Shown here piece after piece: positions 27,397-27,696 of a stretch of DNA of 64,000 nt; the stretch's first letter is position 1, and the number at the start of each line of letters is the position of its first letter. A program made the position numbers and the translations under genes. The stretch lies in NCBI GenBank assembly GCA_009914755.4, contig CP068257.2, positions 43,520,001 to 43,584,000 of the forward strand, given 5' to 3'. Below the pieces are notes generated by a model that was given only the letters and a program-made list of their open reading frames with translations, did no database searches and had not been told where the DNA came from. Source of the DNA: the human T2T-CHM13v2.0 reference genome, Homo sapiens.

Positions 27397-27696
27397 TTTT
27401 TTTTTTTTTTTTTGAGACAGGGTCTCGCTCTTACACCCAGGCTGGAGTGCAGTGGTGCAATCATGGCTCACTGCAGCCTCGACCTCCTGGGCTCTTAAGC
27501 GATCCTTCCACCTCAACCTTCCAAGGAGCTGGGACTACAGGCATGTACCACTATACCTGGCTAATTTTTATATTTTTTATAGAGATGGGGTTTCACCATG
27601 TTGCCCAGGCTGGTCTTAAACTCCTGGGCTCAAGCGATCCACCTGCCTCAGCCTCCCAAAGTGCTGAGATTACAGGTGTGAGCCACCATACCCAGC
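27397..27696 (-). mobile_element. Alu SINE (antisense, older AluJ/S-like). It hosts the exonised 120-nt ADARB1 cassette.
   Basis: Poly-T then gagacagggtctcgctcttacacccaggctggagtgcagtggtgcaatcatggctcactgcagcctcgacctcc ... gggattacaggtgtgagccaccatacccagcc-like end (27677-27696). Confidence 0.9.
27421..27540 (+). CDS. ADARB1: Alternatively spliced 120-nt Alu cassette exon of ADARB1. It inserts 40 aa [40 protein letters not shown] into the deaminase domain (long isoform). The exon is derived from an antisense Alu.
   Basis: The exon lies inside antisense Alu 27397-27696. The acceptor is the poly-T run plus gAGacAG|ggtctcgctc. It is exactly 120 nt to ...gggactacag|gcatgt and is in frame with both neighbours (phase 1 in and out). 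It matches the inserted peptide of the long ADAR2 isoform. The 5' splice site is GC, not GT. Confidence 0.8.

What the first reader, a model, noticed from the sequence alone, without database searches (positions are those of the whole stretch)
27397..27545. Exonised antisense Alu (120-nt cassette) uses the distal AG of GAGACAG and an apparent GC 5' splice site
The cassette 27421-27540 sits inside an antisense Alu. Its 3' splice site is the Alu poly-T tract plus ttGAGACAG|G, using the distal AG (the proximal AG at 27415-27416 would give +4 nt and break the frame). It is exactly 120 nt, so it adds 40 aa ([40 protein letters not shown]) without frameshift. That peptide matches the known ADAR2 long isoform. 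Directly after the last exonic base the genome reads GCATGT, not GT. The only in-frame donor is therefore a GC 5' splice site (CAG|GCATGT), which is weak and consistent with the exon being alternative.
Basis: partly seen in the sequence, partly recalled or inferred. Interest (0 to 1): 0.65.

Follow-up and report, generated by a model that had tools for sequence, protein, structure and literature searches.

The report
Known Alu exon of human ADAR2

Summary
[quoted passage not shown] It is preceded by T17 + GAGACAG (AGs at 27415-16 and 27419-20) and followed by GCATGT.

The flanking exons (26310-26458 and 27870-28038) are 100% identical to the human ADAR2 deaminase domain. Splicing the cassette in adds [40 protein letters not shown] in frame.

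The published ADAR2 exon 7-9 minigene (Gal-Mark 2009, Text S1) prints exactly these 120 bases as exon 8, with the intron starting 'gcatgt'. Strengthening this donor, in a construct that also lacked the downstream U-tract, gave constitutive selection. RNA-seq, proteomics and isoform activity are published too (Lin 2016).

Two corrections:
- 'Only in-frame donor' is too strong. GT donors at 27613 and 27676 are also in frame and open.
- The GC donor is only one of several published causes of alternative inclusion.

Small addition: a private TT insertion (27495-96), absent from the nine other Alus in the window, is what makes the exon 120 nt rather than a frameshifting 118.

Verdict: real, correctly interpreted, already known, low interest.

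The parts
26310..26458 (+). ADARB1 exon 7 (constitutive). It ends ...CCAATCCTGGAAG and its donor is GTATGA. It leaves 1 nt (G) of codon 466.
   Evidence: 100% identity to ADAR2 (PDB 1zy7 chain residues 119-167). tblastn.
27397..27697 (-). Full-length dimeric AluJ (AluJb in the literature) whose sense strand is the window's minus strand, so it is antisense to the gene. Its poly-A tail gives the T17 on the + strand.
   Evidence: Rfam Metazoa_SRP sub-threshold hits on the minus strand for both monomers. 86% identity to a recalled AluJ consensus, better than AluS or AluY. Alignment with 9 other Alus. Called AluJb in PMC13438754 and Alu J.
27397..27413 (+). Polypyrimidine tract of the Alu exon: 17 consecutive T, the reverse complement of the Alu poly-A tail.
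   Evidence: [quoted passage not shown]
27414..27420 (+). GAGACAG 3' splice-site motif. The proximal AG is at 27415-16 (Alu consensus position 279) and the distal AG at 27419-20 (position 275). The distal AG defines the coding isoform.
   Evidence: Consensus positions. Published exon boundary.
27421..27540 (+). ADARB1 exon 8: a 120-nt Alu cassette in phase 1-1 that adds 40 aa ([40 protein letters not shown]) between E465 and E466.
   Evidence: Identical to the capitalised exon in PMC2766253 Text S1. 120 nt and 40 aa.
27495..27496 (+). Private TT insertion (GGGCTC[TT]AAGCG) relative to all other Alus in the window and to the recalled consensus sequences. It changes the right-arm exon from 118 to 120 nt, which makes it in frame.
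27541..27546 (+). GC-type U2 5' splice site, CAG|GCATGT, at Alu consensus position ~158. It matches the CAG|GTAAGT consensus at 7 of 9 positions; only +2 and +4 mismatch.
   Evidence: Published intron start 'gcatgt' and the A(2T) primer.
27565..27578 (+). Internal U-rich tract TTTTTATATTTTTT (the Alu mid A-stretch, antisense), 24 nt downstream of the donor. Published as a TIA1/TIAR-binding enhancer of the weak upstream 5'ss.
   Evidence: Sequence. '14-nt PPT' with two adenosines, with deletion and pull-down experiments, in PMC2766253.
27580..27697 (+). [quoted passage not shown] It contains the pseudo 5'ss CAG|GTGTGA (GT at 27676).
   Evidence: Left-arm deletion shifts exon 8 to constitutive inclusion.
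27870..28038 (+). ADARB1 exon 9 (constitutive). Its acceptor is CTCTTAG| and its donor is ACG|GTAAGG.
   Evidence: 100% identity to ADAR2 chain residues 168-224.

Best explanation
The window lies inside human ADARB1 (ADAR2), transcribed on the + strand. An AluJ inserted antisense in the intron between exons 7 and 9 has been exonised through its right arm. The reverse-complemented poly-A tail is a 17-U polypyrimidine tract. The Alu 3' end reads GAGACAG, and the distal AG is used for the coding isoform. The 5' splice site is the common right-arm site (consensus position ~158), CAG|GCATGT, a U2-type GC donor. [quoted passage not shown] This gives ADAR2L/ADAR2b, which is active but less so than the short form. 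Inclusion is alternative because several features keep recognition sub-optimal. The donor has C at +2. A proximal GAG competes with the distal AG. The intronic left arm acts as a pseudo-exon. Against these, the U-tract 24 nt downstream recruits TIA1/TIAR to support the weak donor. Shown here: the anatomy, frame, gene identity and identity with the published exon. Taken from the literature: the splicing behaviour and protein activity. Inferred here: CpG transitions converted the Alu's GCGCGC to GCATGT, adding U1 matches at +3 and +6, and a private TT insertion made the exon divisible by three.
For: Sequence anatomy. In-frame 40-aa translation. Flanks 100% identical to human ADAR2, adjacent in the short-isoform structure. 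Other ADAR2 exons on the + strand across the window. Antisense Alu. Published minigene with the identical exon, a 'gcatgt' intron start and the A(2T) mutant. Constitutive selection when 5'ssA was strengthened in a PPT-deleted construct, and PPT/TIA dependence. 64% inclusion in 293T, the left-arm pseudo-exon, and the 5'ss of the exonised arm being weaker than that of the left arm. Consensus positions 279/275/158 and the importance of intron positions 2 and 5. 120-nt annotation, PRIDE peptides, 25-100% inclusion, conservation in chimpanzee and rhesus, and an active but weaker long isoform. Location in the 5' binding loop (residues 454-479). U1 duplex proxy of -5.6 kcal/mol for GC against -9.7 for the in-silico GT.
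Against: Nothing contradicts it. There are limits. I had no RNA-seq or cDNA data in the tools, so junction usage rests on the literature. The big protein database returned no human long-isoform entry, and the peptide string is not printed in any searchable paper. The primary papers (Gerber 1997, Lev-Maor 2003, Sorek 2004) are not held, so their content is second-hand via reviews.
Confidence: 0.97

Rival explanations
1. The true donor is the GT four bases downstream (CAT|GTACCA, GT at 27545-46), with a compensating acceptor choice, so the GC is only apparent.
For: A GT dinucleotide does exist at 27545-46.
Against: With the distal AG it gives 124 nt, and with the proximal AG 128 nt. Both shift the frame and stop in exon 9. 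It is a very poor U1 match (-0.7 kcal/mol). The published exon ends at ...ACTACAG with the intron starting 'gcatgt', and the exon is annotated as 120 nt.
Confidence: 0.01
2. The cassette also, or mainly, extends into the left arm using in-frame GT donors at 27613 (192 nt, 64 aa) or 27676 (255 nt, 85 aa).
For: Both are in frame, and the reading frame stays open through the whole Alu. The left-arm donor CAG|GTGTGA pairs with U1 slightly better than the GC site, and the literature says it is the stronger site.
Against: The known long isoform adds 40 aa, not 64 or 85. Only 5% of Alu exons cross the arm border, and the inter-arm U-tract with TIA proteins enforces the upstream donor. Left-arm exonisation required engineered strengthening.
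Confidence: 0.03
3. The exon is alternative simply because of the weak GC donor.
For: C at +2 costs about 4 kcal/mol of U1 pairing in the proxy. The A(2T) mutant was constitutively selected. Intron position 2 is reported as critical.
Against: Deleting or distancing the left arm alone makes the exon constitutive with the GC donor intact. Mutating the G before the proximal AG also does so. The A(2T) result was obtained in a construct that also lacked the PPT, so it does not isolate the GC-to-GT change. Inclusion already exceeds 75% in 8 of 19 tissues. The GC is therefore one contributor among several.
Confidence: 0.25

Closest known systems
Human ADARB1 (ADAR2) exon 8, the Alu-J cassette of ADAR2L/ADAR2b/hRED1-L (Gerber 1997; Lai 1997; Lev-Maor 2003; Sorek 2004; Gal-Mark 2008, 2009; Lin 2016)
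   Same: It is this locus. The 169-nt stretch around the exon is identical to the published minigene, and the exon boundaries coincide. The flanking exons are 100% ADAR2. It is 120 nt and 40 aa.
   Different: Nothing differs. I add only that a private TT insertion at 27495-96 accounts for the length being divisible by three, and that four CpG transitions separate the donor from the AluJ consensus. I did not find these points stated in the papers I could read.
Right-arm antisense Alu exons in general (3'ss at consensus 279/275, 5'ss at ~158, 'site B')
   Same: Same acceptor motif (poly-U + GAGACAG), same donor position and same alternative inclusion. Use of the distal AG is typical of AluJ.
   Different: Most such exons are about 118 or 122 nt, shift the frame and are included at low levels. 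This one is in frame, open, translated, highly included and conserved in chimpanzee and rhesus.
U2-type GC-AG introns (about 1% of human introns)
   Same: GC at +1/+2 with consensus bases at -3 to -1, +1, +3, +5 and +6. It depends on auxiliary enhancers, as described for GC donors.
   Different: Kralovicova 2011 lists Alu-derived GC donors in other genes, and ADAR is not mentioned in its main text. Here the enhancer identified experimentally is an intronic U-tract bound by TIA proteins.
Rodent Adar2 long isoform (10-aa insert from an alternative 5'ss extension of the upstream exon)
   Same: [quoted passage not shown]
   Different: It has an independent origin, is not Alu-derived, is 30 nt rather than 120 nt and shows no sequence similarity.

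Membership tests
Human ADARB1 exon 8 (ADAR2L Alu cassette) | Flanking exons encode the ADAR2 deaminase domain on either side of residues 465/466 | tested here: met
   100% identity to 1zy7 chain residues 119-167 and 168-224, which are adjacent in the short isoform; residue numbering 415-465 and 464 onward.
Human ADARB1 exon 8 (ADAR2L Alu cassette) | Exon sequence and boundaries equal the published exon 8 | tested here: met
   the capitalised exon in PMC2766253 Text S1 maps uniquely to 27421-27540.
Human ADARB1 exon 8 (ADAR2L Alu cassette) | 120 nt / 40 aa in-frame insertion | tested here: met
   Literature.
Human ADARB1 exon 8 (ADAR2L Alu cassette) | Alternative inclusion in mRNA and presence in protein | not testable with these tools
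   No transcript data available. Literature reports 64% inclusion in the minigene, 25-100% across tissues and two PRIDE peptides.
Right-arm antisense Alu exon | Host element is an Alu in antisense orientation to the gene | tested here: met
   (7SL matches on the minus strand for both monomers)..
Right-arm antisense Alu exon | 3'ss made of the poly-T tail complement plus proximal and distal AGs at consensus 279/275 | tested here: met
   Positions.
Right-arm antisense Alu exon | 5'ss at consensus ~158 (ACAG|GY) within the right arm | tested here: met
   homologous to ACAG|GC/GT in all aligned Alus.
U2-type GC-AG intron | Intron begins with GC and ends with AG | tested here: met
   27541-42 is GC and 27868-69 is AG.
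U2-type GC-AG intron | Near-consensus bases at the remaining donor positions, compensating for C at +2 | tested here: met
   CAG|GCATGT matches 7 of 9 positions; 8 of 11 on the extended consensus.
U12-type intron (considered) | Donor consensus /RTATCCTT | tested here: not met
   The donor reads GCATGTAC. It does not resemble the U12 donor box.

The most novel reading that the evidence does not exclude
The only point I did not find in the literature I could read concerns two classes of private mutation. A 2-nt (TT) insertion at 27495-96 converted a frameshifting 118-nt right-arm exon into a 120-nt coding cassette. CpG transitions at +3 and +6 of the donor strengthened U1 pairing. The +3 G-to-A change also destroyed the CpG that would otherwise have made C+2-to-T (GC to GT, constitutive inclusion) a likely mutation. 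On this reading the GC donor, and hence alternative inclusion, was evolutionarily 'locked in'.
Probability: 0.5. Interest if true: 0.2.

Novelty: already known. Interest (0 to 1): 0.07.

Why it matters
As a discovery it does not matter. The exon, its distal-AG acceptor, its GC donor, the GC-to-GT minigene mutant, its tissue inclusion, its peptides and the activity of the long isoform are all published. It has served as the standard minigene model for Alu exonisation for two decades. Its value here is as a positive control: a tool-less reader recovered the correct exon boundaries, frame, peptide and non-canonical donor from raw sequence. The small additions (the frame-restoring TT insertion, CpG-decay tuning of the donor, and in-frame alternative GT donors in the left arm) are of interest only to specialists in exon birth.

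Tried and rejected
- A search of the 5.8-billion-protein database with the 146-aa long-isoform fragment gave only ADAR-family fragments of at most 64% identity and no human long isoform. This says nothing about the peptide claim, which rests on the literature instead.
- A full-text search for the peptide and exon strings found no papers. The exon string was found only in a supplement.
- Sorek 2004, Lev-Maor 2003, Gerber 1997 and Sorek 2007 are not held. Their content is cited only through reviews.
- A search for 'GC-AG' together with ADAR2 and Alu found nothing. Kralovicova 2011 on GC donors does not mention ADAR in its main text.
I used consensus matches and a ViennaRNA U1 duplex energy as a rough proxy.
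- Rejected: the GT at 27545 as the real donor, because it shifts the frame.
- Rejected: a U12-type intron, because the donor has the wrong consensus.
- Rejected: an assembly error at the GC, because the independently cloned minigene has the same bases.
- One script used a mis-framed slice. It was corrected.

Full report
**Observation**

- A run of 17 T lies at 27397-27413.
- It is followed by GAGACAG at 27414-27420, so there are two AGs, at 27415-16 and 27419-20.
- The stretch 27421-27540 is exactly 120 nt.
- The next six bases, 27541-27546, are GCATGT.
- The upstream exon ends at 26458 (GAAG|GTATGA).
- The downstream exon starts at 27870 (CTCTTAG|AACC) and ends at 28038 (ACG|GTAAGG).

The upstream exon leaves one base of a codon. 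In that phase the cassette reads [40 protein letters not shown] with no stop and rejoins the downstream frame.

**Gene identity**

The two flanking exons are 100% identical to the human ADAR2 deaminase domain. In the short-isoform crystal sequence (PDB 1zy7) they are directly adjacent, at chain residues 167 and 168.

The large dsRBD exon also appears as an ORF. The whole window is therefore inside ADARB1. The cassette sits between residues E465 and E466.

**The host element**

Rfam finds two sub-threshold 7SL (Metazoa_SRP) matches on the minus strand, at 27412-27561 and 27580-27696. This is the signature of a dimeric Alu lying antisense to the gene.

The element aligns end to end with a recalled AluJ consensus at 86% identity, better than with AluS or AluY. 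It also aligns with nine other Alus found in the window. The literature calls it AluJ or AluJb.

The exon is the right arm. The T17 is the complement of the poly-A tail. The two AGs correspond to consensus positions 279 (proximal) and 275 (distal). The donor corresponds to position ~158, the most used sites in Alu exons.

**Already published**

- Text S1 of Gal-Mark et al. 2009 (PMC2766253) prints the ADAR2 exon 7-9 minigene with exons in capitals. The capitalised exon 8 maps uniquely to window 27421-27540. It is preceded by 'tttgagacag' and followed by 'gcatgtaccac'.
- The same supplement lists primer A(2T), GCTGGGACTACAGGTATGTACC. This is the C-to-T change at intron position 2, meaning GC to GT.
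- The main text reports that strengthening this 5'ss, in a construct that also lacked the downstream U-tract, gave constitutive selection.
- Häsler and Strub summarise Lev-Maor 2003 and Sorek 2004. They describe an interplay of proximal and distal AGs, and say that positions 2 and 5 of the intron set the U1 pairing balance and the level of alternative splicing, tested on this minigene.
- Gal-Mark 2008 reports 64% inclusion in 293T cells. It also reports that the donor of the exonised arm is weaker than the left arm's, that the intronic left arm acts as a pseudo-exon, and that both AGs were recovered among cloned products.
- Lin et al. 2016 give the annotated exon as hg19 chr21:46604388-46604508 (120 nt). 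They report two PRIDE peptides, 25-100% inclusion across tissues, comparable inclusion in chimpanzee and rhesus, and an active but weaker long isoform.

First, 'the only in-frame donor' is too strong. With the distal AG, GT donors at 27613 (192 nt) and at the left-arm pseudo-5'ss at 27676 (255 nt) are also in frame. The reading frame stays open through the whole Alu. The GC site is the only donor that yields the known 40-aa insert. The nearby GT at 27545 shifts the frame and stops in exon 9.

Second, the GC donor is one of several published causes of alternative inclusion, and is not the sole cause. Removing or distancing the left arm makes the exon constitutive with the GC donor intact. Changing the G before the proximal AG does the same. 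In addition, the U-tract TTTTTATATTTTTT at 27565-27578 recruits TIA1/TIAR to support the weak donor.

Third, the proximal AG is used to some extent in the minigene. That product is 124 nt and terminates four codons into exon 9.

**What I can add**

The alignment of all ten Alus of the window shows that only the exonised one carries a TT insertion, at 27495-96 (GGGCTC[TT]AAGCG). Without it, the 275-to-158 exon would be 118 nt.

The three other Alus in the same orientation (31080, 49509, 57982) give 116-124 nt. None of them is both in frame and free of stops.

Against the recalled AluJb consensus the donor changed from GCGCGCGC to GCATGTAC. These are four CpG-type transitions. The changes at +3 and +6 add U1 matches, raising the count from 5 to 8 of 11. 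As a rough U1 duplex proxy, the energies are -4.5 kcal/mol for the consensus, -5.6 for the actual site and -9.7 for an in-silico GT.

The +3 G-to-A change also removed the CpG containing C+2.

**Verdict**

It is already known in detail and is of low interest as a finding.

Noticed in passing
window 27495-27496: A TT insertion private to the exonised Alu, absent from the nine other Alus in the window and from the recalled consensus sequences. It makes the right-arm exon 120 nt rather than 118 nt. I did not find this stated in the papers I could read.
   Followed up: partly
window 18630-18631 (exon start at 18679): An AA dinucleotide lies exactly 47 nt upstream of the acceptor of the large dsRBD exon (tttacAA|GATCCTGC...). 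This is the position of the known ADAR2 self-editing site, where AA edited to AI creates a 3' splice site and adds 47 nt (Rueter 1999, as summarised in PMC9479739). I did not search for the editing-complementary sequence.
   Followed up: partly
window 49480-49780: An intronic Alu in the same antisense orientation, with a 29-T tract, GAGACAG|AG and a GC donor homologue CAG|GCGTGT. It has the same architecture as exon 8, but the potential exon is 118 or 122 nt and would shift the frame. I did not check whether it is ever spliced in.
   Followed up: no
window 31062-31342 and 57977-58256: Two further antisense Alus whose donor-homologous site is already GT (CAG|GTGCCT and CAG|GTGCAT). They have shorter or interrupted T tracts, and the potential exons either shift the frame or contain stops.
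   Followed up: no
window 27434-27493 (+) and 27585-27645 (-): Sub-threshold Rfam matches to Alu-derived miRNA families (mir-3135 at 61.6 bits against a gathering score of 80, plus mir-1285, mir-1268 and mir-1303). These are expected for any Alu and are not evidence of a miRNA gene here.
   Followed up: no
window 17374-17627 and 39847-40423: The nearest Alus in the opposite orientation to the exonised Alu are about 10 kb upstream and about 12 kb downstream. No close inverted-Alu partner is available to form a hairpin around exon 8.
   Followed up: no
window 45562-46091: Long minus-strand ORFs with a repetitive translation (…SAQCGTGCRGRR…/…AQHSVAQAAGEDAQHSVA…) indicate a tandem minisatellite in the intron.
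   Followed up: no
window 26459-26490: Rodents make their long Adar2 isoform by extending exon 7 by 30 nt through an alternative donor. In the human sequence the 30 nt after 26458 are followed by TT, not GT, so the rodent-type extension has no donor here.
   Followed up: no
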